A stretch of DNA of 64,000 nucleotides, taken from contig CAYTTQ010000002.1 in assembly GCA_964440795.1 (NCBI GenBank), positions 21,106 to 85,105 of the forward strand, given 5' to 3'. The translations under genes and the position numbers were made by a program. Position 1 is the stretch's first letter; the number at the start of each line of letters is the position of its first letter. The DNA is from an uncultured Desulfobacterales bacterium. Its GTDB lineage: Bacteria > Desulfobacterota > Desulfobacteria > Desulfobacterales > C00003060. Below the pieces are notes generated by a model that searched no databases, was not told where the DNA came from, and saw only the letters and a program-made list of their open reading frames with translations. Positions 23,671 through 42,160 of this stretch are shown piece after piece.

Positions 23671-23944
23671 GGCTCATGCAAAAATGGATTGCCTTGTGGA
23701 CTTTTCCCGGTGATCTGTCCGTTCTGGTCGTCCGTAACGGCCGGGTGTTTAATGTTTCTGAAAGAACGAGACAGACGGATCGGTATGTCCGCCGTGTTTA
23801 AGCGGCCCCGTCACGGTCGCCGGGTCCGGAGCCATTCGGTGCGCGGGCGAGTGCGGCCTGACAAGGCAAAGCGAATTGACCGTCCATGGTGGATCACTGT
23901 GGGTAAATACGACTGAGGTCAGAAATTCAGGGAGAATCGGGTTC

Positions 23945-25612
23945 ATGTCCATGGAACTTAGGATGTTGTTGGCGATTGTATTGTCTTTTGTCGTGTTTTT
24001 TGTGTTTCAGTCCATTTTCGGCACACCGCAGCCAAAGCAAGCCCGGAAGCCGGTAACGCCCCAAGAGACCGACAGCCCGACGTCACCGAAAACGGAAAGC
24101 CGGGTTCAACCCTTGTCGGAATCGCCGGCCCTGAAACAAGAGCCCGCGACGGAGTCCTTGGGCACCGATCGCACCATTACCGTGGATACGGCCCTCTACA
24201 TCGCTGAGCTTTCTGAACAAAGCGGGTGTTTTACCAGTTTCAAGCTGAAGAAATATAAAGAGGTGTTAGGGGCGGATGCCGCGCCCAAGGAACTGGTCAA
24301 TTTGCCCACCCAGGCGGGGTGTACCCCGGTGGTCCACTTGCTCCGACAAGGAGAAGCACCGGTAGGACGCGTCGAGGGATTTCAAAGCCCGTTTTCTGAG
24401 ACCCGTCTGGATGTCTCGGCAACAGGAAAAACATTGACCTTTCGTCGGACGGCCCCTGACGGTGTCGCCATCACGAAAACCTATCGGTTTGACCCGAAGA
24501 GCTATGAGATTGCCCTTCAGGTGGAGGTGGCCAATCACACATCCGCCTACATAGAGGACAAGCTGGCGGTATCACTAAAAAACCTGAGAGATAAGTCGGA
24601 CAATTCCCGGTATGTTTTCGCCGGACCGGCGGCGTTGATCAACGGCGAACTCGAGGAGATCGACGTGGACGACATCAAAGACGAACCGCAACACGCCGGC
24701 ACGATCCATTGGGTAGCCAACGAGGATCCTTATTTTGTCTCCGCGGTGGTACCGGAAAAGACGGGGGAATCGACCTTGCAACTGAGCCTTTCCGACGGCG
24801 ATGTCCTCACCACCAGCTACCTGGATCCCTCCGGTCCATTGCCTCCCCGTACGGCGCGAACATTAAATTACACGCTCTATTTCGGACCGAAAAACGTGGA
24901 TACGCTCAGTCAAGTCGGGCCCGCCCTGGCGCGAATCGTCGACTTCGGTTTTTTCGACATCATCGCCAAGCCGCTGCTTCACGCCATGAAGTTCATTTAC
25001 CGGTACATTCCCAATTATGGAGTGGCCATCATCATCATCACCTTTATCGTCAAGCTGATATTCTGGCCGCTGAGCAATCGCAGTTACAAATCGATGAGCC
25101 AAATGAAGCGGCTGCAGCCCAAGATGGCCGAAATACGGGCCAAGTATAAAGACGACAAGCGGATGATGAATCAGGAACTCATGAACCTGTATAAGATCTA
25201 CAAAGTGAACCCCCTGGGCGGGTGTTTACCCATGGTTTTGCAAATACCGGTCTTCTTCGCCTTTTACAAAATGCTCTACCAGGCCATCGAACTTAGACAC
25301 GCCCCCTTCTTTTGGTGGATCAATGACCTGTCGGCGCCGGACCGGTTGTTGCGCTTCGACGTGCACATCCCCCTGATGGCGCCGCCTTACGGAATACCGG
25401 TACTGACCGTCATCATGGGGGCGTCCATGTTTCTGCAACAAAAGATGTCCCCGCCCCCGGGAGACCCCACGCAGGCCAAGATGATGATGTTTATGCCCAT
25501 TTTCTTCACCTTTATCTTCATTAATTTCCCCTCGGGTCTCGTTTTGTATTGGCTGGTAAACAATGTTCTCTCAATGGCTCAGCAATACTACATTACGAAA
25601 AAAACCGCGTAG
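23945..25612 (+). CDS. yidC: Membrane protein insertase YidC
   Basis: N-terminal TM segment, large periplasmic domain, and a conserved C-terminal 60-kDa insertase core (...GGCLPMVLQIPVFFAFY...). Start at ATG 23945 with GGGAGAA upstream. Confidence 0.95.
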   Translation: MSMELRMLLAIVLSFVVFFVFQSIFGTPQPKQARKPVTPQETDSPTSPKTESRVQPLSESPALKQEPATESLGTDRTITVDTALYIAELSEQSGCFTSFKLKKYKEVLGADAAPKELVNLPTQAGCTPVVHLLRQGEAPVGRVEGFQSPFSETRLDVSATGKTLTFRRTAPDGVAITKTYRFDPKSYEIALQVEVANHTSAYIEDKLAVSLKNLRDKSDNSRYVFAGPAALINGELEEIDVDDIKDEPQHAGTIHWVANEDPYFVSAVVPEKTGESTLQLSLSDGDVLTTSYLDPSGPLPPRTARTLNYTLYFGPKNVDTLSQVGPALARIVDFGFFDIIAKPLLHAMKFIYRYIPNYGVAIIIITFIVKLIFWPLSNRSYKSMSQMKRLQPKMAEIRAKYKDDKRMMNQELMNLYKIYKVNPLGGCLPMVLQIPVFFAFYKMLYQAIELRHAPFFWWINDLSAPDRLLRFDVHIPLMAPPYGIPVLTVIMGASMFLQQKMSPPPGDPTQAKMMMFMPIFFTFIFINFPSGLVLYWLVNNVLSMAQQYYITKKTA

Positions 25613-25626
25613 GAACGGAGGCACTC

Positions 25627-26331
25627 ATGGCGCCTGAATATGAATTTGAGGGAAAAACCAAGGAAGAAGCCCTGGCAAACGCTTGCAAAGAACTCGGTCT
25701 GACCGAGGAAGAAATGGAAACCGAAGTGCTGTCCTACGGTTCGAGCGGGATATTCGGCCTGGTAGGCGTAAAAAGGGCCAAGATTCGAGTGGCCGTTCCG
25801 GAATCGGTCGCCCCGGCAACGGCACCGGCAGCCCCCGCGGAACCAGAAACGGAGACCGAGACGGTGCCGGCCTCGACGGACATCGTACAAACCGCCAAAG
25901 AGGCGGTTGACGAAATTGTTTCTCACATAGCAGACGACACCTCGGTTACCGCCACCGCCACGGCCGACGAGATCACCCTGGAAGTACACGGCGGAAACGC
26001 CGCGTTATTGATCGGCAAGCATGGTAAGACACTCGACGCCCTCCAGTACCTGGTTCAACGTATCGTCCAAAAACAAGGCGGCACCAGAATCCGCGTCACC
26101 GTGGATGTAGAAGGGTATCGAAGCAGACGGAAGGACTCCTTAAGCCGACTCGCCTTGCGCTTGAGCGAAAAAGTGAAACAGACCGGTAAGCCGGCCACCA
26201 TTAAGCCGATGAACGCATATGACCGGCGTATCGTCCATTTGGCACTCAAGAAAGAAAACAAAGTCCGCACCCAAAGTAAGGGAACGGGGACTTTCAGAAA
26301 AGTGGTCATCTACCTGCAAAAGAAAAGTTGA
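25627..26331 (+). CDS. jag: Jag/KhpB-type RNA-binding protein (Jag_N, KH, R3H)
   Basis: MAPEYEFEGKTKEEAL N-terminus and a C-terminal R3H-type segment (YDRRIVHLAL). In the conserved position after yidC. Confidence 0.8.
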   Translation: MAPEYEFEGKTKEEALANACKELGLTEEEMETEVLSYGSSGIFGLVGVKRAKIRVAVPESVAPATAPAAPAEPETETETVPASTDIVQTAKEAVDEIVSHIADDTSVTATATADEITLEVHGGNAALLIGKHGKTLDALQYLVQRIVQKQGGTRIRVTVDVEGYRSRRKDSLSRLALRLSEKVKQTGKPATIKPMNAYDRRIVHLALKKENKVRTQSKGTGTFRKVVIYLQKKS

Positions 26332-26390
26332 GCCGCCAAAGACGGTTGGCTCGCCCCTCCAAATGAGATTTTTCGAGGGTTTTTTCCATC

Positions 26391-27779
26391 GTGAATTCCC
26401 CTGTTGACACCATAGCGGCGATTGCCACACCTCTCGGGGCCGGCGGTATCGGGGTCGTCAAGATGTCCGGGCCGGCATGTGAGTCCGCCTTGCGCGGATT
26501 GCTGCCCGCCGAAAGGCAACCCGATACGTTGACGTCCCACCTGCTCTATCACGGATTCATCATCGACCCTCACTCCGGTGCCGCTGTGGATGAAGTGCTT
26601 TACACACTCATGCGCGCACCCCGGTCCTACACCCGGGAAGACGTGGTGGAAATTCAAGCCCACGGCAGTCGATGCGGTTTAAACAAAATCTTGGAACTGC
26701 TGTGTGCCCGCAGCGACGTTCGGCTGGCCGACCCCGGGGAATTCACCAAACGGGCATTCTTGAAAGGCCGGATTGACCTGACCCAGGCGGAAGCGGTAGC
26801 GGAACTGATCTCCGCCCAGACCCCGCCGGGTCACGAGCTGGCCGCCCGGCAGTTGCAGGGAGAGCTGCGCCGTCAAGTGGAAGCCGTGTACCGTCAGGCG
26901 GAACAACTTCTGGTAAATATCGAGGTGGGGGTCGATTTCCCGGAGGACGTGGAAGATATCTACCGGCCGGAAATTGTGTCGGACCAGTTGGCATCGGCGG
27001 TAATTGAGCCGATGGAACGCTTGCTGGCGTCCTACGAGGAAGGCCACGTCTATCGGGACGGCGTGTCCACCGTTATCATCGGCAAGCCCAATGTGGGCAA
27101 ATCGAGCCTGATGAACTGTCTCCTGCAAAAGGAACGGGCCATCGTGACCACGTTTCCCGGAACGACGCGGGACTTTATCGAAGAAACGGTGAATATGGGC
27201 GGGGTACCCTTTCGATTGATCGACACCGCGGGGCTGCGGCGAACCGACGATGATTTGGAGGCGGTTGGAATCCGGCTTACCCGGCGTGAGTTGCAGGCGG
27301 CGGACGTGGTATTATTCGTGATCGACGGCAGCCAACCCCTAACGGCGGAAGACCGAGACATCTACGCCGACATTCGGGATCGAGAGGTTATCCTGGTCAT
27401 CAACAAGAGTGATCTTCCCGGCCACACTCCGACCGAAGAACTCACGAATCGGTTCCCCGCCCGGGCAGCGGTATCCACGTCCGCTTTATTGTGCAAAGGC
27501 ATGGAACGCTTGAAACATGATGTCTGGTCCGTAGTGACAGGTCGGTCCGGACCGGCGGAATTACCCGGCGTGGTGCCGAATCTCAGGCAAAAACAGCTGC
27601 TTCAGCGGGCCCTCACGGCCGCCGGACTCTCTCAGGACGCCCTGAAAGCCGACGCCGCCCCCGAACTGGTGGCCGTCGACCTTCGCGAGACCCTCAACTG
27701 TCTCGGGGAAGTCATCGGAACGCAGACCTCGGACCGGATCTTGGATCGGATTTTTGAACAATTCTGCATAGGAAAGTAG
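26391..27779 (+). CDS. mnmE: tRNA modification GTPase MnmE
   Basis: DTIAAIATP N-terminus, GKPNVGKSSL G1 motif, C-terminal ...FCIGK. Confidence 0.95.
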   Translation: MNSPVDTIAAIATPLGAGGIGVVKMSGPACESALRGLLPAERQPDTLTSHLLYHGFIIDPHSGAAVDEVLYTLMRAPRSYTREDVVEIQAHGSRCGLNKILELLCARSDVRLADPGEFTKRAFLKGRIDLTQAEAVAELISAQTPPGHELAARQLQGELRRQVEAVYRQAEQLLVNIEVGVDFPEDVEDIYRPEIVSDQLASAVIEPMERLLASYEEGHVYRDGVSTVIIGKPNVGKSSLMNCLLQKERAIVTTFPGTTRDFIEETVNMGGVPFRLIDTAGLRRTDDDLEAVGIRLTRRELQAADVVLFVIDGSQPLTAEDRDIYADIRDREVILVINKSDLPGHTPTEELTNRFPARAAVSTSALLCKGMERLKHDVWSVVTGRSGPAELPGVVPNLRQKQLLQRALTAAGLSQDALKADAAPELVAVDLRETLNCLGEVIGTQTSDRILDRIFEQFCIGK

Positions 27780-28768: not shown

Positions 28769-31282
28769 TTACCTTTCCTCGTTTCCGCCCGCCGGCTCCT
28801 TTTGGATCCGGGCCAACTGAATGGCCCGGTCAGTGAGGCCAAACACTTCCTCGAGAATCCGGGTAACCCGAAGTTGGGGGGTTCGGGATCCGTCAATCAC
28901 CATCTCCAATACCCCGGGGGAAGGAGACGACATCCGGTTAACCAAACGCTTCAGGTCTGCCGTGGAAACCCGCCCCTTCCGATTTACCTTTTGAACCGGC
29001 CAGGTCTCGGTTTGATCAAACGCCTGCAGTCTCTCCGCCGGAAACCCTTCGTCTCGAAGGGTGATTACGTACTTGTGAAGAGAAACAGCGCCCCGGGCAC
29101 GGGCGGCCCGGTCGCTCAAAGGCCGTATACGCAATCCCGACGGGAGGCACTCATTGAGTCGCCCCGTCAGTTCGTCGCCGTCCAGGTCTGCGAGCGTCTC
29201 AACGGACAAACACTCCTCCCGGCTCTCGATACCCACCGGCAAGGCGGTGTCAAAAGAGATCTTTGGAGACGGATGAAATCCCTGGGAATACTGCACGGGA
29301 ATGCGGGCGCGGCGGAATGCCCGTTCGATGATCCGAACCAGCTCGAGATGACCGAAGAACCGGGCCGGACCGGTCTTAGAGTAAAGAAGGACCCGCTTCC
29401 GGAAGACAGGCGAGGTAGGAGGGCGGGACCCTACCTCAACCGGCGTCGTTTCCGTTTGACGGTAAATGACCGGCATTACCTCCTTGAAATCACACACCCC
29501 GCACCCGTGGCACGTACCTGAGCGGCAATCCGATGTGGGGGTCAACGCCAGAGATTTTTCCCATTCGTCCCACAGAAAGGCCTTCGACACACCGGCGTCA
29601 ATGTGATCCCAGGGCAAGGGGGCCGTGGCCTCCCGGCTCCGCAAATAGGCCTGCGGATCGATGCCGGTGGCAGCCATGGCGTCCTGCCAGGCGGACAGGT
29701 TGAAATGATCACTCCAGCCGTCGAACCGGCAGTTGTTCCGATAGGCGCGGATCAATAACGGGGTCAACTTACGATCCCCTCTCGCCCACACCCCTTCCAG
29801 CAGGCTCATCTCCGGGTTCTGCCACTTGAAGCGGATACCCCGTTTCCGCAGGGCGGCTTTGAGGTGGGCGATTTTCTCCCGGCTTTCTTGCAGCGAGACC
29901 TGGGAACACCACTGGAATGGGGTGTGTGGCTTGGGGACGAAGGTGGAAACACTGACCGTAATTCCTTTCCATCCCTTTTTCGGCGGGCGCATGCGGGCGA
30001 GTCGGGCGGCCAGATCGATAATGGCGTCGATGTCCTCGGCGGTCTCGGTGGGCAAACCAATCATAAAATAGAGCTTGATTCCCTGCCAGCCCAACGCCAT
30101 GGCGTGGTCAACGGCAGTGAACAGGGATGCTTCATCCACGTCTTTGTTGATGACATCCCGTAGGCGCTGGCTGCCTGCCTCCGGGGCAAGAGTAAAGCCG
30201 GTTTTTCGAACCCGTTTGATTTGACGCATCAAGGGCGCATTCAAGCCACCCACGCGCAGGGACGGCAGCGACAGAGCGATCCGTTCCGGTTCACAGCGGT
30301 CCATGAGGCGATGAATGAGCCAGGGAAGGCTGGCATAGTCCCCGGTACTCAAAGACAGAAGGGACAGGTCTTCGTAACCCGATCCCGCCAAGGCCCGGTC
30401 GGTCGAAGCGAGCAATCCTTCCGGGTGCCGTTCCCGCACGGGACGATAGATCATGCCGGCCTGGCAAAACCGACACCCCCGTGTACACCCGCGGCAGACC
30501 TCGATGCTCAGGCGGTCGTGAACGGGGTTACCGAAAGGAACGATCGGCCGGTACGGCGGGGGCACGGTGTCGATGTCCGATAGCAAAGCCTTTTTTACAC
30601 CGGTATATCCCGCCTTCCGAGGGACCACCCCTTGATTGCCTGCGGCGTCCCATCGGGGGCGAAAAAAGGAGGGAATGTAGACCCCTGGAAGGCGCGCCCA
30701 TTGGTCGAACAACGCCCCACGGTCACCGTCCCGTTCTCGCCAGGCCAACCAGACATCGGCCAGCCGCAAAACGAGATTCTCGCCGTCTCCCACCACCATG
30801 GCGTCAAAAATATCGGCCATCGGTTCCGGATTGAAGGTACAGGGGCCGCCGGCGATCACAAGGGGGTGGGATTCGTCCCGGTCCTTATTCAAAAATGGGA
30901 TACCGGACAGTTCCAGCATGGCTAGAATATTGGTATAACTGAGTTCGTACAGGAGGCTGAATCCGACGATGGAAAACGCCCCGACCGGTGTTCCCGTTTC
31001 CAGGGACCGCAACGGATCACCCCGCTCCCGCAGCAGGGACGCCATGTCCAGCGCCGGGGCAAAGACCCGCTCCGCGCCGATATCCGGTCGTTCATTCAGG
31101 ATTTGATAGAGAATCTGGAGGCCCTGATATGACATGCCGATTTCATACAGGTCGGGAAAGGCCAGAAGCATCCGGAGGGCAACGGAACCGGGGTCTTTCC
31201 GGCGGGCATTGATCTCACACCCCAGGTACTGGCTGGGCTGACGGACCAAGGGCAAGGTGATGTCATGGTGGTCGTATGTCAT
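28769..31282 (-). CDS. Radical SAM protein, fusion of a B12-binding-type radical SAM module with a DUF2344-like C-terminal module
   Basis: 837 aa. N-terminus ...LVRQPSQYLGCEIN, CRGCTRGCRFCQAG cluster motif. My assignment to the TIGR03960 + TIGR03936 families is from memory. Confidence 0.8.
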   Translation of the reverse strand: MTYDHHDITLPLVRQPSQYLGCEINARRKDPGSVALRMLLAFPDLYEIGMSYQGLQILYQILNERPDIGAERVFAPALDMASLLRERGDPLRSLETGTPVGAFSIVGFSLLYELSYTNILAMLELSGIPFLNKDRDESHPLVIAGGPCTFNPEPMADIFDAMVVGDGENLVLRLADVWLAWRERDGDRGALFDQWARLPGVYIPSFFRPRWDAAGNQGVVPRKAGYTGVKKALLSDIDTVPPPYRPIVPFGNPVHDRLSIEVCRGCTRGCRFCQAGMIYRPVRERHPEGLLASTDRALAGSGYEDLSLLSLSTGDYASLPWLIHRLMDRCEPERIALSLPSLRVGGLNAPLMRQIKRVRKTGFTLAPEAGSQRLRDVINKDVDEASLFTAVDHAMALGWQGIKLYFMIGLPTETAEDIDAIIDLAARLARMRPPKKGWKGITVSVSTFVPKPHTPFQWCSQVSLQESREKIAHLKAALRKRGIRFKWQNPEMSLLEGVWARGDRKLTPLLIRAYRNNCRFDGWSDHFNLSAWQDAMAATGIDPQAYLRSREATAPLPWDHIDAGVSKAFLWDEWEKSLALTPTSDCRSGTCHGCGVCDFKEVMPVIYRQTETTPVEVGSRPPTSPVFRKRVLLYSKTGPARFFGHLELVRIIERAFRRARIPVQYSQGFHPSPKISFDTALPVGIESREECLSVETLADLDGDELTGRLNECLPSGLRIRPLSDRAARARGAVSLHKYVITLRDEGFPAERLQAFDQTETWPVQKVNRKGRVSTADLKRLVNRMSSPSPGVLEMVIDGSRTPQLRVTRILEEVFGLTDRAIQLARIQKEPAGGNEER

Positions 31283-31324
31283 AGGTTCTCTATCTTAAAA
31301 CCCCTGTCGGGACGGCAGGTTCCA

Positions 31325-31352
31325 GGAAAATGTTCCACGTGGAACATTTTCC
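31325..31352. other. parS site 1 (core TGTTCCACGTGGAACA at 31331-31346) inside a 28-bp perfect palindrome
   Basis: GGAAAATGTTCCACGTGGAACATTTTCC is its own reverse complement. The core is 15/16 identical to the classical parS TGTTCCACGTGAAACA. Confidence 0.75.
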
Positions 31353-31366
31353 GTGTCGTCCATTTT

Positions 31367-31400
31367 GTTTCGAAATGTTCCACGTGGAACATTTCGAAAC
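31367..31400. other. parS site 2 (core TGTTCCACGTGGAACA at 31376-31391) inside a 34-bp perfect palindrome
   Basis: GTTTCGAAATGTTCCACGTGGAACATTTCGAAAC is its own reverse complement. Centre-to-centre distance to site 1 is 45 bp. Confidence 0.75.
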
Positions 31401-31420
31401 CCTTTCTCCCCGTCTTACCA

Positions 31421-32116
31421 TCAATCCTTCCGGTACACGATTAGGCACCGCTCTATCCCCGAAACGGGGAGCCGATAGCGATGACGTATGACCTCGAAAC
31501 CCGCCTTTCCCGCCTGTTCGTCCCCCCGCGTTTCTTCTCCACTCCCCATCAGTACTAACCATCCCCCGGCCTTCACCAGGGGAGCACACCATGGCACCAC
31601 CTGTTCCGGGTTTCCCACCGCCTTGACAACGACACCGTTCCACTCTCGCCACGCTTCTTCCCGTCCCTCCACGAGGGCCTCCGCCCGGCCCTGCCTTACC
31701 ACCATGTCCTTTAACCCCAGGGCCCTCACCAGATGTTTCAAGAACGTGATCTTTTTCCGAACCCCGTCGATGAGACAAACCTTCAGGTCCGGCCGCAACA
31801 CCTTTAAGGGCACCCCAGGAAAGCCACCGCCGGAACCGACGTCCAATATCCGCCATCCCTGAGGCAGCATACCGGCAAGGGGTATGGTGTCCAGGAATTG
31901 TCTCTCCGCCAACACACCCGACCGCTTAACCGCCGTCAGGTTCACCGCCGAATTCCAAGCCCACAACTCCCGGCCGTGCCGGACGAATTGCTCCACCTGA
32001 GCGGCCGTCAACGGATGCCCCATCGTTCGCGCACCCTCTTCCACTATCCGCGAAAATTCATCCCACACGCGTTTCTCTTTCAATCCCGCCTCAACTCCAC
32101 CAGCAGCGCCCCCCAT
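31421..32116 (-). CDS. rsmG: 16S rRNA (guanine527-N7)-methyltransferase RsmG (GidB)
   Basis: ...NLTAVKRSGVLAERQFLDTI...ILDVGSGGGFPGVPLKV... SAM-binding motif. The start is uncertain: ATG 32116, or TTG 32083 overlapping the Smr stop. The track ORF extends to 32254. Confidence 0.8.
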   Translation of the reverse strand: MGGAAGGVEAGLKEKRVWDEFSRIVEEGARTMGHPLTAAQVEQFVRHGRELWAWNSAVNLTAVKRSGVLAERQFLDTIPLAGMLPQGWRILDVGSGGGFPGVPLKVLRPDLKVCLIDGVRKKITFLKHLVRALGLKDMVVRQGRAEALVEGREEAWREWNGVVVKAVGNPEQVVPWCAPLVKAGGWLVLMGSGEETRGDEQAGKAGFEVIRHRYRLPVSGIERCLIVYRKD

Positions 32117-32349
32117 CCGCCCGCCTCGGGCGGTGCCGGTGACACCGACACAACCAACGGATTCTTTTCTAACACCGCTTCCACCCGCCGTCTCAATATG
32201 CCTCGCCCCTTTCCGTGGATCACTCGCACCGAAAAGATTTCCTCTTCCACACACGCAGCCAGATAGGCCTCCAGAAGATCCGGGATCTCCTTGGGCAAAA
32301 ATGTGTGCAGATCCAACACATCCTCAATGGGAACTCTAACGACCATCAC
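32080..32349 (-). CDS. Smr domain protein
   Basis: 89 aa: LDLHTF...VRVIHGKGRGILRRRVEAVLEKNPLV. The start overlaps the upstream regulator's stop (ATGA). Confidence 0.8.
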   Translation of the reverse strand: MMVVRVPIEDVLDLHTFLPKEIPDLLEAYLAACVEEEIFSVRVIHGKGRGILRRRVEAVLEKNPLVVSVSPAPPEAGGWGALLVELRRD

Positions 32350-33722
32350 ATCCCTCCCGCTTTGCCTATCCCGTATTTCTTCATCTTTTTGTACAAGGTA
32401 TCCCTCGAAATCCCCAACAGGCGCGACGCCCGGGCCTTATTCCCCCCCGTCTCTCTCAAGGCCTCCCGAATATGGCCCGCCTCCACCTCCGCAATGGGAC
32501 GAACCCCCGGGGCCGCCCGCGTCGTCGGTGCTTGCCCCAACTCTTCCGTCACCGCCTTTAAATCCTTCGACGTAATCCTTTCCCCCTTCACCAGCGCCGA
32601 CACCGCTAAGAGTAGATTCCTCAACTCCCGAATGTTCCCCGGCCAGTCGTATGCCTCCAGGATCTCCCGCGCACTCTTCGAAATCCCTGGAACCCGCCAC
32701 CCATATGTCTGGGAAAATTGCTCCAGGAAGTGATCCATAAGCACCGGAATCTCTTCCTTTCTTTCCCGCAACGGGGGCAACTCCAACCGGATACAGGCCA
32801 AGCGCTCATAGAAGTCCTTTCGGAATACCGATCGCCGGATCATACCTTTTAAGTCTTGGTTGGTCGCCGCAATCAGCCGAACATCAACCCGGCGCGTCTT
32901 CGTGTCCCCGAGCCGCGTAATTTCCTGGTCTTCGATGAACCTTAGCAACTTGGGCTGTGATTCCAAAGACATATCCCCCACCTCATCCAGAAAACAGGTA
33001 CCCCCTTCCGCCATTTCCAGTTTTCCCGCTTTGTCGACGGCATTGTTGAACGCCCCTTTCACGCACCCAAAGAGTTCACTTTCAAAAAGCCCTCCCGGAA
33101 TGGATGAACAATTGATGGCCACCATCCGACCCGTCCGGCCCGAATATGCATGTAACGTCCGTGCAACGTGTTCCTTTCCGGTACCCGCCTCCCCCAGTAT
33201 CAATATGGGCACGGCAATTCGAGCCACCGTTTCCACGTCCCGATACAATCCGGTCATCTTCTCGCTCACCACGACCACACCGTCTTCGCGCAATCGGGCC
33301 TTCAACCGGGATGACGCGTCATCTTCCACACCCGACGGAGCCAGGGTATCCACACCTTCCTCCCATCCCCCGTCAGTCCGTGAGCCCCCTTTTTGCCGGC
33401 GGTGGGAAACGTCTGCCACCGCACCCTCGTCTACAAAGGTAATCTCATAATCGACAATTTCAAACTTCGTTCCGTGTACCAGGAGACACGAATCGATCCG
33501 CCTCCCCTCGACCCACGTACCGTTTTTACTCCGGTCGCGCAGGACATAGCCCTCCCTTTCCTTGCAAATATCCGCATGCCGCCGCGAGACCAACAAGTCA
33601 TCCCGGTCACTCAACACGACATCATTGGTTTCCGCTCGACCCACGGTTATCCGATCGGTAAAGCGAAACACCCGGTAGTCCTTAACCTCCTTACCCACCA
33701 CCAGATAGGCCATCTCCGCCAC
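32346..33722 (-). CDS. Sigma-54-dependent transcriptional activator with N-terminal FHA domain
   Basis: FHA: ITVGRAETNDVVLSDRDDLLVSRRHADI...RDRSKNGTWVEGRRI. AAA+: GEAGTGKE, ESELFGCVKGAFNNA. C-terminal Fis-type HTH: ...ASRLLGISRDTLYKKMKKYGI. Confidence 0.9.
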   Translation of the reverse strand: MAEMAYLVVGKEVKDYRVFRFTDRITVGRAETNDVVLSDRDDLLVSRRHADICKEREGYVLRDRSKNGTWVEGRRIDSCLLVHGTKFEIVDYEITFVDEGAVADVSHRRQKGGSRTDGGWEEGVDTLAPSGVEDDASSRLKARLREDGVVVVSEKMTGLYRDVETVARIAVPILILGEAGTGKEHVARTLHAYSGRTGRMVAINCSSIPGGLFESELFGCVKGAFNNAVDKAGKLEMAEGGTCFLDEVGDMSLESQPKLLRFIEDQEITRLGDTKTRRVDVRLIAATNQDLKGMIRRSVFRKDFYERLACIRLELPPLRERKEEIPVLMDHFLEQFSQTYGWRVPGISKSAREILEAYDWPGNIRELRNLLLAVSALVKGERITSKDLKAVTEELGQAPTTRAAPGVRPIAEVEAGHIREALRETGGNKARASRLLGISRDTLYKKMKKYGIGKAGGM

Positions 33723-33975
33723 CCCTATGATTCATCCAACTTCCACCACACCGAGCACTCGCATTCCTTTTCATTTCAACACTTTGCAACAGCCATTCCC
33801 GGCAGCCCACAATTCTTCTTGACTAACCCCCTGATTTGCTGATATTTTATTATCGAGTGTCATTCCCTTCAATGCATGGGGTTCTAATCGGATCGTATGC
33901 GGGCCGGCTACATTGACCTAAGGCCATCTATCCGGCCGAACGCACGACAAGACTTTCAAACCATCAAAGCGCACC

Positions 33976-33991
33976 AGGCGTGCACTTCGCT
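33976..33991 (+). promoter_or_regulatory. Weak sigma-54-like element (GG-N10-GC) upstream of the PilZ gene
   Basis: aGGcgtgcacttcGCt has correct GG/GC spacing but a poor match to the flanking consensus. Lies about 35 nt upstream of ATG 34025. Confidence 0.25.
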
Positions 33992-34024
33992 GTCCCGATC
34001 TCCGTTACGGAAGAAACCGTCTCT

Positions 34025-34345
34025 ATGACCGAGTTTTCCGAAAAGCGAGCCGAACCACGCACACAACTGGAGAAATATCACAGTGTCGAATTTCGGGTAT
34101 CTGAACAGGGGGCACTCTACCAATTCAAGATCTGGAATACCTCTTCAAAAGGGCTCTGCCTGTTAGTCAGGGAAGATTCCGAGATTCTAACGGACCTTGA
34201 GGTGGGAACCGTTTTGGACATGAAGTATTACACGACTGATTTTTCTCAACCTCCCGAAAAACTCAAGACAGAAATCAAACATATCACAAAAGAACCGGAA
34301 GGCCGCTTCCAGGGCCATTTTTTCGTGGGCCTTCGCGTCGTCTAA
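34025..34345 (+). CDS. PilZ domain protein (c-di-GMP receptor family)
   Basis: RAEPR (RxxxR) followed by NTSSKG (D/NxSxxG), the two PilZ signature motifs. Start taken at ATG 34025. Confidence 0.8.
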   Translation: MTEFSEKRAEPRTQLEKYHSVEFRVSEQGALYQFKIWNTSSKGLCLLVREDSEILTDLEVGTVLDMKYYTTDFSQPPEKLKTEIKHITKEPEGRFQGHFFVGLRVV

Positions 34346-34408
34346 TGCTCCATCCAACGCCGCAAACCGATTGCCACGGAAAACCTCCCGTTTAGCCCAC
34401 CACGCTGT

Positions 34409-34747
34409 CTAGCCGTCTTCCGGTTCGATCCAAACCATGTGCGCCTTATTGACGATCAAGACCTTTCCCGTGCCTCCCGAGTACGCGGCGTCGAACAACA
34501 CCAAAAAGTGCTCCTCATTTTTGGTGAACAGGTCCGATACCCTGTCGCGAGCCCCCAGGTTGACACTCCCCTGTAATACGCTCCCGTCTACGGTTCGAAT
34601 GGTCACTTGACGGACCTTCATTTTTCCGCTGTCTTTCTTTTCCGACTCCATGCACCTTACCTCCCCGAGAGTTTTTACCGCCACCAAAACAAACAGCCCA
34701 ACCAAAGCGGCGCGCCCAAAATCCAGTTTGGTAAAGCTGAGGGGCAT
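34409..34747 (-). CDS. Hypothetical protein with N-terminal hydrophobic segment
   Basis: MPLSFTKLDFGRAALVGLFVLVAV... then MKVRQVTIRTVDGSVLQGSVNLGARDRVSDLF...VLIVNKAHMVWIEP. The start at ATG 34747 lies inside the tRNA-like fragment. The track ORF's upstream extension is probably not real. Confidence 0.5.
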   Translation of the reverse strand: MPLSFTKLDFGRAALVGLFVLVAVKTLGEVRCMESEKKDSGKMKVRQVTIRTVDGSVLQGSVNLGARDRVSDLFTKNEEHFLVLFDAAYSGGTGKVLIVNKAHMVWIEPEDG

Positions 34748-34773
34748 CAAACCCCTGACCTCATGACTGCCAG
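34735..34773 (-). other. Duplicated 3' half of tRNA-Ala (att-like fragment)
   Basis: agctgaggggCatcAaacccctgacctcatgactgccag matches 35195-35233 of the intact tRNA gene at 37/39 positions. It covers the anticodon loop to the 3' acceptor strand. Confidence 0.75.
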
Positions 34774-34844
34774 GAGCGACATCTCCCTGCCAACCCCCTG
34801 ATATCTTTTGGCTATCCGAACCAACTAAACCTGCTCGCAGAAAT

Positions 34845-34873
34845 AATATAACCAAACATCCTCAAAAAATCAA
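34845..34873 (-). promoter_or_regulatory. Candidate sigma-70 promoter for the 34409-34747 gene
   Basis: Minus strand reads TTGATT, 17-nt spacer, TATATT. Confidence 0.35.
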
Positions 34874-34967
34874 TTACTGTCACTTTTTCACAAATAGAAG
34901 GACGCAATCAAGGTCCTAATTTGTAACTTCAGACGCAGTTGTGACGCTCAAATGTTTATCGAAGCAC

Positions 34968-34997
34968 ATTGTTATGATATGAATTGTTATGATATGA
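34968..34997. repeat. Perfect tandem duplication of a 15-mer (ATTGTTATGATATGA x2)
   Basis: 34968-34982 and 34983-34997 are identical. Lies in the non-coding stretch between the tRNA fragment and the tRNA. Confidence 0.9.
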
Positions 34998-35143
34998 CCT
35001 GATCGCATCTCTTCGCTCGGACATTAAGACCACACTGGCTTATAGGACAAGATCTCGCAATCACCAAACACAACTTCAAAAAAAGCGGGTGGACCAATGA
35101 GACACGAAGCAAGCACCCACCTGCTCCCAGTGGCGCCGATGAC

Positions 35144-35180
35144 ACAAAAAAAGAGGTTGCCGAAAATGGCTAACCTCTTG
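35144..35180 (-). terminator. Rho-independent terminator downstream of tRNA-Ala
   Basis: Minus strand: AAGAGGTTAGCCATTTTCGGCAACCTCTT (8-bp outer stem plus GCC/GGC) followed by TTTTTTT. Confidence 0.6.
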
Positions 35181-35188
35181 TTATTACT

Positions 35189-35264
35189 TGGTGGAGCTGA
35201 GGGGGATCGAACCCCTGACCTCATGACTGCCAGTCATGCGCTCTCCCAGCTGAGCTACAGCCCC
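35189..35264 (-). tRNA. tRNA-Ala (anticodon GGC), CCA encoded
   Basis: Reverse complement GGGGCTGTAGCTCAGCTGGGAGAGCGCATGACTGGCAGTCATGAGGTCAGGGGTTCGATCCCCCTCAGCTCCACCA folds as a cloverleaf. It has the G3:U70 Ala identity pair and anticodon loop CTGGCAG. Confidence 0.95.
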
Positions 35265-35301
35265 GTGTTGCCATTTTATTATACCAACCCCGGGTCTGCT
35301 G

Positions 35302-35706
35302 TCAATCAGCTTTTTTTTCAACGATTTCTGTCAAAACCCCTTGCGTTTCCTTGGGATGCAGGAAAGCGACTTTTTTGCCGCCGGCGCCGACCCGCGGTGT
35401 GCTATCCACCAAGCGAACACCGTTTTTATTGAGTTCTTCTAAGGCTTCATCAACATTTCCCACCTCATACGCAATATGGTGCACCCCTTCCCCGCGCTTG
35501 GAAAGATACTTGCCGATAACCCCGTCCTCCGTCGTCGGTTGAATCAATTCCAGGTTTACTTCGCCCACCGGCACAAAGGCAATCCGCATATCGCCGACCG
35601 TTTCTTCGGCTCCCACCGAGACCCCCAACTTCTGTTCATAAAACGCCTTGGCTGCACCCAAGTCCTTAACTGCGATTCCTATATGATCGATCTGTTTTAA
35701 TTTCAC
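35302..35706 (-). CDS. Methylmalonyl-CoA epimerase (VOC/glyoxalase family)
   Basis: VKLKQIDHIGIAVKDL...VHHIAYEV...GGKKVAFLHPK. GTG start at 35706 with AGGGAGG upstream. The track ORF is longer. Confidence 0.8.
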   Translation of the reverse strand: MKLKQIDHIGIAVKDLGAAKAFYEQKLGVSVGAEETVGDMRIAFVPVGEVNLELIQPTTEDGVIGKYLSKRGEGVHHIAYEVGNVDEALEELNKNGVRLVDSTPRVGAGGKKVAFLHPKETQGVLTEIVEKKAD

Positions 35707-35850
35707 CCCAACCTCCCTTGTCCCCTTCGGCCAACGCCTATAACTTTGACTTCTTTTCCCTTTCTTGACAACTCCCGGACCACGCACTATATATTAAACA
35801 TTGTTTGAATAACCGGCCATTCGGTATTCTTTTTACGAAAGAGACCCAAC

Positions 35851-36105
35851 ATGCAAAACCCGTTTCACAATTATTACCAAAGTCCTCAGGAAGAATCCCC
35901 CAGCCGTGCGGACATGTTCAAAGAACTTGACGCCACGGAGCTTTACTGTCCGACCTGCCGCTGTGCCACACCGGTGCGTAAGCGATTATTGCTGGTGCTC
36001 CCCGAAGGCGACAAATATGAGTATCTGTGCAGTTATTGCATGACCTCCGTGGGAGCCAAAGTAGTCCGAAAGAATGCGCCCTCCGAAAACAGACTCGTTA
36101 TCTAG
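35851..36105 (+). CDS. Hypothetical small zinc-ribbon protein
   Basis: 84 aa with CPTC...CSYC spaced like a zinc ribbon. No family recognised. Confidence 0.5.
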   Translation: MQNPFHNYYQSPQEESPSRADMFKELDATELYCPTCRCATPVRKRLLLVLPEGDKYEYLCSYCMTSVGAKVVRKNAPSENRLVI

Positions 36106-36146
36106 TTGCCATCCATTTCCCACACCTTTTTCCTAAAAGTGTCTGT

Positions 36147-36845
36147 TCACGGCTCTTCCCGCATCGTTCGCAGTTGCGCCAGCTCCCACACGTAATCATA
36201 TAGATGCAGCCCCTTGCTGGCGGCGATGATTTCCCCATCTCCCACCCCGATCTCGTCACTCATATATTCTTTCAACAACTGAAGACCGCCCAAGTTGGCG
36301 GGAAACCCGTTCCATAAGTCCCAAGATCGAAAATAGACCATAAAATGCAGTCGGTCGTGGCTGATCCGGGTATCGATATGGCGCAGACACGGCGGATCGT
36401 TCAACAAGATGTCCGATGGGACGGATACCGTCATTGCCGCTTGATTGGTGCCGTACCCCTTGCTCTTGTACATATCGATCACGGCCTCAATCTGATTGAC
36501 GATTTCCGAGGCGCCCTCGTTTTCGTACCGCCACCCGGTTAAACGCTCGCCATACGTATAGTCTTCGTTGGGGTGTTTGTTCGGAGTCATGAGATAGGGC
36601 AAATAGGTTTCCACATATCCCTCTTCCACCGGATTGGGAATCCCGAGGGACGCGGGAATGTCGGGGATCATGGGCCTCACACCCGGATACTTCACCCGAA
36701 CCGTTACGTAATCGAACTCCAGTCGCTTCTGTCCCACACAACTGCCATGGTCGATCACATACTCCCGACCGGTGTCCTGCAACTCATATACACATTGAAA
36801 CCAAGCATCCGGCAAGTCCCGCGCCTCTACAGTGACCAATCTCAT
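36147..36845 (-). CDS. Divergent thymidylate synthase (ThyA-fold) protein, short archaeal-like type
   Basis: 232 aa. NQIEAVI..., DPPCLRHIDTRI (catalytic-type Cys), YFRSWDLWNGFPANL, GLHLYDY follow the ThyA fold pattern but diverge from canonical bacterial ThyA. Confidence 0.6.
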   Translation of the reverse strand: MRLVTVEARDLPDAWFQCVYELQDTGREYVIDHGSCVGQKRLEFDYVTVRVKYPGVRPMIPDIPASLGIPNPVEEGYVETYLPYLMTPNKHPNEDYTYGERLTGWRYENEGASEIVNQIEAVIDMYKSKGYGTNQAAMTVSVPSDILLNDPPCLRHIDTRISHDRLHFMVYFRSWDLWNGFPANLGGLQLLKEYMSDEIGVGDGEIIAASKGLHLYDYVWELAQLRTMREEP

Positions 36846-36863
36846 CTACCTTCGTTGCACTCC

Positions 36864-40371
<3,508 letters not shown>

Positions 40372-40500
40372 ATTAAGCTCCCTTTTATTTTATTATATTA
40401 GTAATAAAAACCATCATCATAAGGCCTATCAGTATTGTAAAAAAGGGCTATAATATACGCATATAATTAATTTATTCTATCAAATTCATGTTAAAAAAAA
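40372..40500. other. Strongly AT-rich intergenic block upstream of dnaN (promoter region, possible unwinding element)
   Basis: Hand count of 40381-40500 gives 25 G+C out of 120 (21%), against about 55% in the flanking genes. Confidence 0.6.
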
Positions 40501-40602
40501 GGTCCAAAGAAGACCCCGATTCGTTGAAGAGCGACTTGTGATCAAAAAAAGAGGCACTATCGACAATGATATAAACATGCCTGTGTAAAAAAAGTGCCAG
40601 GG

Positions 40603-41886
40603 TCACGATGAAAAATAGTCTTTTACCATCTTGATGGCACAAAGTTCACCGCACATGGTGCAGACGTCCTCAGCGCCGGGGCGACTGTTTTTCCTGTAGG
40701 TTTCTCCCTTGTCCGGATCGATTGAGAGGGCAATCTGTCGGTCCCAGTCGAGTCGTTTTCGTGCCGTGGCCATTTCCAAATCCCACCCGGCGGCCCCCGG
40801 GTGCCCTTTGGATAGGTCCGCTGCATGCGCGGCTATTCGAGAAGCGATGACGCCTTCTTTGACGTCTTCTATGCCTGGCAATTTCAGATGTTCCGCCGGG
40901 GTGACGTAGCAGAGAAAATCGGCCCCGGCTTTTCCGGCCAGAGCTCCGCCTATGGCACACGCAATATGGTCATATCCGGCGGCAATATCGGTGACGATGG
41001 GCCCTAGAACATAGAACGGCGCCCCGTGACATAACCGTTTTTGTAATATCACATTGGTTTCAATTTGGTCCAGCGGGACGTGCCCCGGACCTTCAATCAT
41101 CACTTGGACGTTGGCGTCCCAAGCCCGTTGGGTCAGTTCTCCCAAGGTAAGTAACTCCTGCACCTGTGCCCGATCCGTGGCGTCGGCGATGCATCCGGGC
41201 CGCAACCCGTCCCCGAGACTCAGTGTTATGTCGTATTGATGGGCAATGGAAAGGAGCCTGTCGAAATCGGTATAGAATGGATTTTCTTTGTCATGGTGTA
41301 ACATCCAGGAGGTCAAGAAAGCCCCGCCTCGACTGACGATATCCGTTACCCGACCTTGGCGTCGCAATCGTTCCAGTGCGTGGCGTGTGAGACCCGAATG
41401 AATGGTCATAAAGTCCACGCCGTCTTTGGCCTGTTCTTCGATAACGTCAAAGAGAATATCCGGGGTAATATGAACGATCCCGCCCGATTTTTCAGCGGTT
41501 TCTATGGCTGCCTGATAAATGGGAACCGTACCAAACGGGAGCGTCGAGGCCTCAAGCAGGACTTTACGGATATGGGCCACGTTTCCCCCCGTACTTAGAT
41601 CCATGACCGCGTCCGCCCCGGCGCTTACGGCGCAGTGGAGCTTTTTCAACTCTTCGTCGAGATCGACGTGGTCACGCGAGGTTCCAATATTGGCGTTTAC
41701 TTTTATGGTCGACGACTTTCCGATGCCCACGGGGTCTAAGTGTGCGTGATGTATATTGGCAGGGATGACCAGTGTTCCTTCGGCGACATGATGTTGAACC
41801 GTTTTGGGGTCCAGGTTTTCTTTTTCAGCCACTTTCTTCATGACTTCCGAAACGACTCCGTCCCGGGCCAATTCGATCTGCGTCAT
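40603..41886 (-). CDS. thiC: Phosphomethylpyrimidine synthase
   Basis: 427 aa: ...TVPIYQA..., HGAPFYVLGPIVTDIAAGYDHI, C-terminal CTMCGELCAIK cluster motif. Confidence 0.95.
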   Translation of the reverse strand: MTQIELARDGVVSEVMKKVAEKENLDPKTVQHHVAEGTLVIPANIHHAHLDPVGIGKSSTIKVNANIGTSRDHVDLDEELKKLHCAVSAGADAVMDLSTGGNVAHIRKVLLEASTLPFGTVPIYQAAIETAEKSGGIVHITPDILFDVIEEQAKDGVDFMTIHSGLTRHALERLRRQGRVTDIVSRGGAFLTSWMLHHDKENPFYTDFDRLLSIAHQYDITLSLGDGLRPGCIADATDRAQVQELLTLGELTQRAWDANVQVMIEGPGHVPLDQIETNVILQKRLCHGAPFYVLGPIVTDIAAGYDHIACAIGGALAGKAGADFLCYVTPAEHLKLPGIEDVKEGVIASRIAAHAADLSKGHPGAAGWDLEMATARKRLDWDRQIALSIDPDKGETYRKNSRPGAEDVCTMCGELCAIKMVKDYFSS

Positions 41887-42028
41887 TCCAACTCCCTAAG
41901 AAAACAAATTAAATGGTTATTCAGGGACCCGATCTCGCGATGATCATCACGTCCCTTCTGAACCCCCATAGCCTACCAAAAAAAAAGAAAGAACACAAAC
42001 ACTTGTCTTCCCGTAAAAGACTATCGAT

Positions 42029-42050
42029 AAACTCGGCAAGCGGTGGATTT
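42029..42050 (+). repeat. 22-nt exact repeat, copy B (AAACTCGGCAAGCGGTGGATTT)
   Basis: Identical to 22719-22740. Here it is non-coding, in the thiC/tal divergent intergenic region. Confidence 0.9.
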
Positions 42051-42160
42051 GGGGGCTCCGAACCGGTTGACCATCCGGCGTTTGTCGGTTATGGTGCGTC
42101 GGTATCGACCAAAGCGCATAGGGGAAGTCACCATACGTTTAAGAAAGGGAGATGCCTGGT

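What the first reader, a model, noticed from the sequence alone, without database searches (positions are those of the whole stretch)
31325..31400. Twin parS centromere sites embedded in 28-bp and 34-bp perfect palindromes, with no parAB nearby
Two copies of TGTTCCACGTGGAACA (31331-31346 and 31376-31391) lie 45 bp apart between rsmG and the radical SAM gene. Each is 15/16 identical to the classical parS TGTTCCACGTGAAACA. The symmetric C/G substitution makes each copy a perfect palindrome. Each core is also extended into a much longer perfect palindrome: GGAAAATGTTCCACGTGGAACATTTTCC and GTTTCGAAATGTTCCACGTGGAACATTTCGAAAC. That is longer than the 16-bp ParB site needs and would also form very stable RNA or cruciform hairpins. 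They sit where parA-parB usually follow rsmG, yet those genes are absent from the window.
Basis: partly seen in the sequence, partly recalled or inferred. Interest (0 to 1): 0.6.

Follow-up and report, generated by a model that had tools for sequence, protein, structure and literature searches.

The report
Twin chromosomal parS centromere sites
Two adjacent copies of the standard bacterial chromosome-segregation site (parS) lie just after the rsmG gene in the origin region of an uncultured Desulfobacterota-like bacterium; this is an ordinary centromere, and its pairing, long palindromic flanks and lack of a nearby parAB operon are all common at parS sites in other bacteria.

Summary
Two copies of TGTTCCACGTGGAACA (31331-46 and 31376-91) sit inside perfect 28-bp and 34-bp palindromes, in the 138-bp gap between rsmG and a radical-SAM gene. 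The 16-mer is letter-for-letter the experimentally validated parS of Pseudomonas aeruginosa (parS2/3), P. putida and Bdellovibrio.

Relatives keep parS at the same syntenic spot. Two of them have switched both half-sites to the other canonical palindrome, TGTTTCACGTGAAACA. No ParA, ParB or DnaA is encoded in the 64-kb window.

I compared 120 parS-bearing loci from many phyla:
- 20% of sites sit in perfect palindromes of 28 bp or more, against about 1% in controls.
- Spacing between neighbouring sites peaks at 36-53 bp.
- parS directly downstream of rsmG is frequent, and half of those cases show no ParB motif in the 8-kb block.

The long arms are not conserved among close relatives. They lack terminator U-tracts and match no Rfam family. 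They are most likely produced by template-switch expansion of the palindrome rather than needed for ParB.

Verdict: a new member of a known kind, of low interest. The cross-phylum excess of long parS palindromes is a modest side lead. I could not scan this genome as a whole or locate its parAB.

The parts
31331..31346 (.). parS site 1 (core TGTTCCACGTGGAACA), on the radical-SAM gene side
   Evidence: Exact match. Identical to P. aeruginosa parS2/parS3, P. putida parS and B. bacteriovorus parS. Conserved in L001, L002, L130, L003 and L131.
31376..31391 (.). parS site 2 (core TGTTCCACGTGGAACA), on the rsmG side, 45 bp start-to-start from site 1
   Evidence: A parS at this position after rsmG is present in all relatives examined that keep rsmG here: L001, L002, L130, L003, L126, L127 and L129.
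31325..31352 (.). 28-bp perfect palindrome GGAAAATGTTCCACGTGGAACATTTTCC around site 1
   Evidence: I4. DNA hairpin -10.6 kcal/mol, against -3.6 for the bare 16-mer. The orthologous site in L001, L002 and L130 is a 24-bp palindrome that differs by one T/C in the right arm.
31367..31400 (.). 34-bp perfect palindrome GTTTCGAAATGTTCCACGTGGAACATTTCGAAAC around site 2
   Evidence: I3. DNA hairpin -14.7 kcal/mol. The left arm (in rsmG orientation) lies in a roughly 20-nt insertion that is absent from L001 and L002, where the palindrome is only 20 bp.
31421..32083 (-). rsmG (16S rRNA m7G527 methyltransferase); its stop codon is 20 nt from the 34-bp palindrome
   Evidence: Pfam GidB E=1.7e-33. A 220-aa, 100%-identical homologue (P0001) fixes the likely start.
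32080..32349 (-). Small Smr-domain gene overlapping the rsmG start; fused to rsmG in some relatives
   Evidence: Pfam Smr E=7.8e-22. The Smr-GidB fusion is seen in L129 and in many homologues.
28769..31282 (-). Radical-SAM/DUF2344 gene (837 aa); its ATG is 42 nt from the 28-bp palindrome. It occupies the slot where parAB sits in many other bacteria.
   Evidence: Pfam Radical_SAM_N2, Radical_SAM and DUF2344. The synteny rsmG - parS - this gene is conserved in L001-L004, L127, L129, L130 and L131.
23876..27779 (+). yidC - jag - mnmE, classical origin-region marker genes 3.5-7.5 kb from the sites
   Evidence: Pfam.
36864..40371 (-). gyrB - dnaN, origin-region marker genes 5.5-9 kb from the sites; no dnaA next to them
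   Evidence: Pfam. Cumulative GC skew falls until about 40 kb, is flat from 40 to 52 kb, then rises.

Best explanation
These are two functional chromosomal parS centromere sites. A ParB (Spo0J-type, CTP-dependent clamp) encoded elsewhere on the chromosome, more than 31 kb away on either side, binds each 16-bp palindrome as a dimer. It loads and slides onto flanking DNA to build the partition complex that marks the origin region. That complex is segregated by ParA and loads SMC. The pair sits at the ancestral position immediately downstream of rsmG. In this lineage the parAB operon that follows rsmG-parS in many bacteria is no longer there, and a radical-SAM gene follows instead. The extra palindromic arms (28 and 34 bp) are not part of the ParB site. 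They are evolutionarily labile extensions, most likely generated by intrastrand template switching seeded by the perfect 16-bp palindrome. Shown here: sequence identity to validated parS, conservation at the syntenic position, absence of parAB from the window, and non-conservation of the arms. Inferred: ParB binding in this organism, and the mutational origin of the arms.
For: (1) There are exactly two copies against a chance expectation of 0.02. (2) The 16-mer equals the validated P. aeruginosa parS2/3, P. putida and B. bacteriovorus parS, and is one base from the M. xanthus consensus. (3) Origin-region context: yidC-jag-mnmE, rsmG and dnaN-gyrB lie within 9 kb, and there is a V-shaped cumulative GC skew with its minimum at 40-52 kb. 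(4) Conservation: two sites between rsmG and the radical-SAM gene in L001, L002 and L130 (rsmG 83-85% identical, radical-SAM gene 95%) and in L003, L004 and L131 (rsmG 55%). There is one site after rsmG in L126 (62%), L127 (55%) and L129 (GyrB 75%). L127 and L129 carry TGTTTCACGTGAAACA, meaning both half-sites changed together, as expected for a symmetric dimer site. (5) The arrangement rsmG followed by one to three parS is widespread across phyla: 14 of 29 sampled loci with rsmG. (6) Close pairs are the typical arrangement: 52 of 180 neighbour distances fall at 30-60 bp. (7) Arms beyond 20 bp differ between the window (28 and 34 bp) and relatives whose radical-SAM gene is 95% identical (24 and 20 bp). 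One change is a single T/C substitution and the other involves a roughly 20-nt insertion. Expansion of inverted repeats by template switching is a published mechanism (PMC13100816, PMC8794818, PMC7202029). (8) A published review states that par operons and most parS sites lie anywhere within the ori domain, about 20% of the chromosome, and that several parS near oriC is the rule. A parAB operon more than 31 kb away is therefore not in conflict.
Against: No ParB gene of this organism was found, so a cognate binder is assumed and not shown. oriC itself was not located: there is no dnaA and no DnaA-box cluster in the window. 'Origin-proximal' therefore rests on marker genes and GC skew. Further copies elsewhere therefore cannot be excluded. 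The template-switch origin of the arms is inferred from their lability and perfection, not demonstrated. The strong cross-phylum excess of long perfect palindromes could equally reflect selection.
Confidence: 0.85

Rival explanations
1. The palindromes work mainly at the RNA or transcription level. They would be 3'-end hairpins of the rsmG transcript, acting as a terminator, attenuator or stabiliser that insulates the radical-SAM gene. In this reading the parS core is incidental, or the element has a dual function.
For: Both palindromes lie in the transcribed gap between two co-directional genes. The 141-nt intergenic RNA folds to -56.8 kcal/mol, z = -5.96. In other phyla some parS palindromes do look like A-tract/stem/T-tract bidirectional terminators, for example L010, L070, L113, L116 and L025.
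Against: On the transcribed (minus) strand neither hairpin is followed by a U-tract: the 34-bp one is followed by AAAAUGG and the 28-bp one by UGGAACC. The consensus terminator scan finds nothing there on the minus strand. No Rfam family matches. The conserved part across relatives is the parS core plus AA/TT flanks, not the stem length. In the cross-phylum sample, long palindromes are no richer in T-runs than short ones: 13/50 against 49/167.
Confidence: 0.1
2. The extended arms are selected at the DNA level. Hairpin or cruciform extrusion at parS would help ParB loading, position the clamp, or block replication or transcription through the centromere. The arms would then be functional, not mutational debris.
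For: There is a large excess of long perfect palindromes centred on parS across many phyla: 20% are 28 bp or longer against about 1% in two controls, and 9.5% are 34 bp or longer against 0.06% or less. The arm sequences are unrelated to one another, which is a covariation-like pattern. Both sites in the window are extended.
Against: Arm length changes between near-identical relatives (28/34 bp against 24/20 bp) while the locus is otherwise conserved. Most parS sites in the sample (80%) lack long arms. The arms are mostly AT-rich with modest stability. The ParB DNAs quoted from the retrieved literature are the 16-bp core with 3-bp synthetic flanks. I found no paper linking parS to cruciforms or extended palindromes.
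Confidence: 0.15
3. The 16-mers are operators for a different symmetric DNA-binding protein that recognises a CACGTG-centred palindrome, or they are copies of a dispersed REP/MITE-like repeat. Either way they would not be centromeres.
For: No ParB gene is in the window, so the binder is not identified.
Against: All 16 positions match validated parS. The only variant seen in relatives is the other canonical parS palindrome. The position after rsmG is the classic par-locus position. There are only two copies in 64 kb, both in one gap, and none elsewhere in the relatives' loci.
Confidence: 0.03

Closest known systems
Pseudomonas aeruginosa parS2/parS3 (also P. putida parS)
   Same: The 16-bp sequence TGTTCCACGTGGAACA is identical and is a perfect palindrome. 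The sites form a small origin-proximal cluster, and several sites lie close to oriC.
   Different: The organism is different: an uncultured Thermodesulfobacteriota-like lineage. Here the two perfect sites are 45 bp apart in one intergenic gap and carry 28-bp and 34-bp palindromic extensions. No cognate ParB has been identified.
Bdellovibrio bacteriovorus parS and the Myxococcus xanthus parS consensus (TGTTCCACGTGGAACG)
   Same: The CC/GG variant of the core is the same, and both come from lineages formerly grouped in the Deltaproteobacteria.
   Different: M. xanthus has about 22 sites. Only two are visible in this 64-kb window.
The gidB(rsmG) - parS - parA - parB arrangement, seen here in many sampled genomes
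   Same: parS lies immediately downstream of rsmG, often as a pair or triplet. Examples are L051, L074, L062, L065 and L006, where ParB follows.
   Different: parA and parB are missing from that slot here, and a radical-SAM/DUF2344 gene follows instead. The same 'orphan' layout, rsmG-parS with no ParB motif within several kb, also occurs in sampled Acidobacteriota (L050, L101, L121).
Inverted-repeat expansion by template switching (quasipalindrome mutagenesis)
   Same: The arms are perfect, lineage-specific extensions of a pre-existing palindrome. They change by single-step events that create complementarity. The mechanism is described in E. coli, yeast and humans.
   Different: To my knowledge it has not been described for parS. 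The evidence here is only the pattern, not a reconstructed mutational event.

Membership tests
Chromosomal parS (ParB/Spo0J-binding centromere site) | 16-bp inverted repeat matching the consensus tGTTNCACGTGNAACa | tested here: met
   Two exact copies of TGTTCCACGTGGAACA, identical to validated sites.
Chromosomal parS (ParB/Spo0J-binding centromere site) | Location in the origin domain of the chromosome | tested here: inconclusive
   The origin-region markers yidC-jag-mnmE, rsmG and dnaN-gyrB lie within 9 kb, and the cumulative GC-skew minimum is at 40-52 kb. However, no dnaA or DnaA-box cluster was found, so oriC itself is not pinned down.
Chromosomal parS (ParB/Spo0J-binding centromere site) | Conservation of the site, including symmetric half-site changes, in related genomes | tested here: met
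   The site is present after rsmG in L001-L004, L126, L127, L129, L130 and L131. L127 and L129 carry TGTTTCACGTGAAACA.
Chromosomal parS (ParB/Spo0J-binding centromere site) | A cognate ParB and ParA encoded in the same genome | not testable with these tools
   Both are absent from the 64-kb window and from relatives' loci within about 10 kb either side.
Chromosomal parS (ParB/Spo0J-binding centromere site) | ParB binding and nucleation in vivo or in vitro | not testable with these tools
   This needs ChIP-seq or EMSA/BLI with this organism's ParB.
Rho-independent (intrinsic) terminator | G+C-rich stem-loop followed by a U-tract on the transcribed strand | tested here: not met
   There is no minus-strand terminator-like site at 31325-31400. 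The tails on the minus strand are AAAAUGG and UGGAACC.
REP/MITE-like dispersed palindromic repeat | Many copies dispersed in intergenic regions across the genome | tested here: not met
   There are only two copies in 64 kb, both in one gap, and no extra copies in the relatives' loci. The test is limited to the DNA available.
Known structured RNA family (Rfam) | A match to a covariance model at its gathering score | tested here: not met
   Only miRNA-hairpin matches were found, at 19-24 bits against gathering scores of 83-100 bits. Nothing reached the gathering threshold.

The most novel reading that the evidence does not exclude
Long, perfect palindromes of arbitrary sequence centred on parS may be a general and, as far as I could find, undescribed property of bacterial centromeres. 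They would be maintained because hairpin or cruciform extrusion, or an RNA hairpin, at the site helps ParB loading or shields the centromere from transcription or replication. The window's 28-bp and 34-bp twins would then be a clean example of a selected structural module and not mutational by-products.
Probability: 0.15. Interest if true: 0.55.

Novelty: new member of a known kind. Interest (0 to 1): 0.25.

Why it matters
For this genome, the finding marks the chromosomal centromere and supports placing the origin region in this window for an uncultured lineage. It also shows that parS can stay at its ancestral place after rsmG when parAB has moved away. More broadly, the comparison set made to judge this finding shows two regularities in parS architecture. 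One is a roughly 20-fold or greater excess of long perfect palindromes around the core. The other is a preferred neighbour spacing of 36-53 bp, with almost none closer than 36 bp. Both could inform models of ParB loading and of palindrome growth by template switching. The finding itself does not change what is known about ParABS systems.

Tried and rejected
1. Exact-protein look-ups of the window's rsmG (277-aa ORF) and dnaN found nothing. The genome is not in that collection with those gene calls.

2. I scanned genome contigs with the 20-mer AATGTTCCACGTGGAACATT, hoping to retrieve this genome's other parS sites and parAB. I used the 120 loci as a comparison set instead.

3. Terminator hypothesis: not supported.

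4. Known RNA family: none.

5. DnaA-box search to locate oriC: no enrichment (14 matches against 9.3 expected) and no cluster.

6. A sigma-54 promoter reading of TGGAAC...TGCC just after the 28-bp palindrome: rejected by eye, because the GG-N10-GC spacing does not fit.

7. Literature searches for parS combined with cruciform, intrinsic terminator or extended palindrome returned nothing relevant.

8. The metagenome scan with the radical-SAM protein gave 30 loci, but only the two closest (L130, L131) keep the parS-radical-SAM junction. It therefore added little resolution on how the arms evolve.

9. The 188-aa ORF at 31290-31856 (minus strand) that overlaps the palindromes has no Pfam match and overlaps rsmG in another frame. 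I treated it as spurious.

Full report
**Observation.** Reading 31100-31640 shows GGAAAATGTTCCACGTGGAACATTTTCC at 31325-31352 and GTTTCGAAATGTTCCACGTGGAACATTTCGAAAC at 31367-31400.
- The 16-mer TGTTCCACGTGGAACA occurs exactly twice in the window. No further match appears at up to 2 mismatches, and 0.02 are expected by chance.
- A relaxed search (TGTTNCACGTGNAACA, up to 3 mismatches) adds only three 3-mismatch hits, which is chance level.
- The repeat finder confirms two perfect inverted repeats, 14+14 nt and 17+17 nt, and a shared 22-mer.
- As single strands the DNA hairpins are worth -10.6 and -14.7 kcal/mol, against -3.6 for the bare 16-mer.

**Context.** The sites lie in the 138-bp gap between two minus-strand genes: rsmG (Pfam GidB, stop codon at 31421) and an 837-aa radical-SAM/DUF2344 gene (ATG at 31282).
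- Nearby are yidC-jag-mnmE (23.9-27.8 kb, plus strand). On the minus strand are a small Smr gene and an FHA/sigma-54 activator upstream of rsmG, then gyrB-dnaN (36.9-40.4 kb) and thiC.
- Cumulative GC skew falls to about 40 kb, is flat to about 52 kb, then rises. This fits an origin within or near the window.
- No dnaA and no DnaA-box cluster were found.
- No ParA or ParB is encoded in the window. The signature motifs GERRxRA and KGGxGKT are absent from all six frames. Pfam scans of essentially all substantial ORFs gave housekeeping functions only.
- GyrB is 70-74% identical to MAGs labelled Thermodesulfobacteriota, Desulfobacterales or Deltaproteobacteria. The host is therefore an uncultured member of, or neighbour to, that group.

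**Identity as parS.**
- The 16-mer is letter-for-letter P. aeruginosa parS2/parS3, called 'the perfect palindrome' in PMC4368675.
- It is also the P. putida parS, and it is one base from the M. xanthus consensus (review PMC7022226).
- It is the parS used for B. bacteriovorus ParB assays.

**Relatives.** I found relatives through rsmG, GyrB and radical-SAM homologues, and they keep the site in the same place.

| Loci | Relatedness | parS after rsmG |
|---|---|---|
| L001, L002, L130 | rsmG 83-85% identical (L001, L002); radical-SAM gene 95% (L130) | two sites 47 bp apart, before the radical-SAM gene |
| L003, L004, L131 | rsmG 55% | the same two sites, 714 bp apart |
| L126 | rsmG 62% | one site |
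| L127 | rsmG 55% | one site, TGTTTCACGTGAAACA |
| L129 | GyrB 75% | one site, TGTTTCACGTGAAACA |

 In L127 and L129 both half-sites changed together to the other canonical parS palindrome. That is the behaviour expected of a site read by a symmetric dimer. A more distant lineage (L134, L135, L158) again has two parS 47-48 bp apart, there downstream of mnmE. None of these loci carries a ParB or ParA motif within about 10 kb.

The hits came from Bacteroidota, Bacillota, Acidobacteriota, Nitrospirota, Planctomycetota, Patescibacteria, Bdellovibrionota and others. I used these 120 loci as a comparison set.
1. **Palindrome length.**
   - Of 168 sites that are perfect palindromes of at least 20 bp, 20.2% extend at least 4 more pairs per arm (28 bp or longer). 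Controls give 1.0% with shuffled partner flanks and 0.6% with a shifted register.
   - 9.5% extend at least 7 more pairs (34 bp or longer), against 0.06% and 0% in the same controls.
   - The longest reach 48-52 bp, and their arms have unrelated sequences.
   - By-catch sites that were not selected by the 20-mer show the same heavy tail.
2. **Pairing.** 87 of 120 loci have at least two sites. Of 180 neighbour distances, 52 fall at 30-60 bp and only 3 fall below 36 bp.
3. **Position.** rsmG is present in 29 of the 8-kb blocks. In 14 of them a parS, often two or three, lies 5-173 nt after the rsmG reading frame. Seven of those 14 have a ParB motif in the block and seven do not. At least L050, L101 and L121 have several kb of downstream sequence without one.
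4. **parAB proximity.** Only 28 of 120 blocks contain a ParB motif at all.

The review also states that par operons and parS lie anywhere in the ori domain, about 20% of the chromosome. Twin spacing, long palindromes and the absence of adjacent parAB are therefore all within the normal range for parS.

**What are the arms?** They are not conserved.
- The 28-bp palindrome is 24 bp in L001, L002 and L130. The difference is one T/C in one arm.
- The 34-bp palindrome is 20 bp in those relatives. In rsmG orientation, the window's left arm GTTTCGAAA lies inside a roughly 20-nt insertion. It is the reverse complement of the right flank, which in the relatives reads TTTCAAAC.
- L125 (rsmG 79%) shares the insertion, but its contig ends inside the arm.
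- Only AATG...CATT, the 20-mer, is constant across the lineage.
- They are not canonical terminators. On the transcribed strand the hairpins are followed by AAAAUGG and UGGAACC, and the scan finds no minus-strand terminator there.
- Across the sample, long palindromes are no richer in T-runs than short ones: 13/50 against 49/167. A subset (L010, L070, L113, L116, L025) does look like bidirectional terminators.
- No Rfam family matches.

Perfect, lineage-specific arms of arbitrary sequence that change in single steps fit best with expansion of an existing palindrome by intrastrand template switching. That mechanism is documented in E. coli, yeast and humans (PMC7202029, PMC8794818, PMC13100816). 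This is inference. Selection for a DNA or RNA hairpin is not excluded, and I rate it at about 0.15.

**Mechanism (best explanation, 0.85).** ParB dimers encoded elsewhere bind the two 16-mers, load as CTP-dependent clamps and spread over the origin region. ParA and SMC act on that complex. This follows from established knowledge of ParABS and was not tested here. Still unshown are the ParB gene of this organism, actual binding, the exact oriC, and the genome-wide site count.

**Novelty and score.** This is a new member of a known kind, and a specialist would not be surprised by it. The cross-phylum excess of long perfect palindromes and the 36-53-bp spacing mode are side observations. I could not find them in the searchable literature. 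They come from a sample conditioned on the 20-mer and need an unbiased re-analysis. Interest 0.25.

Noticed in passing
L005-L124 (cross-phylum parS loci): Perfect palindromes centred on parS are far longer than chance predicts: 20% are 28 bp or longer against about 1% in controls, and the longest reach 52 bp, with unrelated arm sequences. I could not find this described in the searchable literature. The sample is conditioned on the AA/TT-flanked 20-mer.
   Followed up: partly
L005-L124: Distances between neighbouring parS sites peak at 36-53 bp (52 of 180 fall at 30-60 bp), and only 3 pairs are closer than 36 bp. This suggests a preferred or minimum spacing for adjacent ParB loading sites.
   Followed up: partly
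window 39256-41886: dnaN-gyrB is preceded by thiC, not dnaA, and no dnaA is anywhere in the 64-kb window. The same thiC-dnaN-gyrB order is present in relatives L128 and L129.
   Followed up: partly
window 40372-40602: The dnaN-thiC gap is the most AT-rich stretch of the window (28% G+C around 40300-40500) and lies where cumulative GC skew levels off. It may be a DNA-unwinding element or part of an origin, but it has only one DnaA-box-like match.
   Followed up: partly
window 32000-40000: This block has a strongly negative GC skew (-0.21 to -0.32). From about 34 kb its G+C is also lower (47-50%, against 54-59% elsewhere). It covers the sigma-54 activator through gyrB and dnaN.
   Followed up: no
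L003 10719-11418 (= L004, L131): In this relative the two parS sites are separated by about 700 bp of apparently non-coding sequence, against 45-47 bp elsewhere. This looks like an insertion between the twin sites.
   Followed up: no
L125 1600-1632: A metagenome contig of a close relative ends exactly inside the left arm of the rsmG-side palindrome. This is consistent with assemblers breaking at the twin 22-mer repeat or palindrome.
   Followed up: no
window 32080-32349 and 31421-32083: A small Smr-domain gene overlaps the rsmG start by 4 nt. In many relatives Smr and RsmG are fused into one protein of 320-358 aa.
   Followed up: no
window 41887-42151 (upstream of thiC): No TPP riboswitch was detected upstream of thiC at the Rfam gathering threshold. 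The only Rfam hit in the window is a tRNA at 35192-35264 on the minus strand.
   Followed up: no
L134 12883-12945, L135, L158 6922-6983: In a more distant lineage (radical-SAM gene 41-53% identical), two parS sites 47-48 bp apart lie downstream of mnmE and upstream of a CxxCxxCC-domain gene. No rsmG or parAB was seen among the flanking ORFs scanned.
   Followed up: partly
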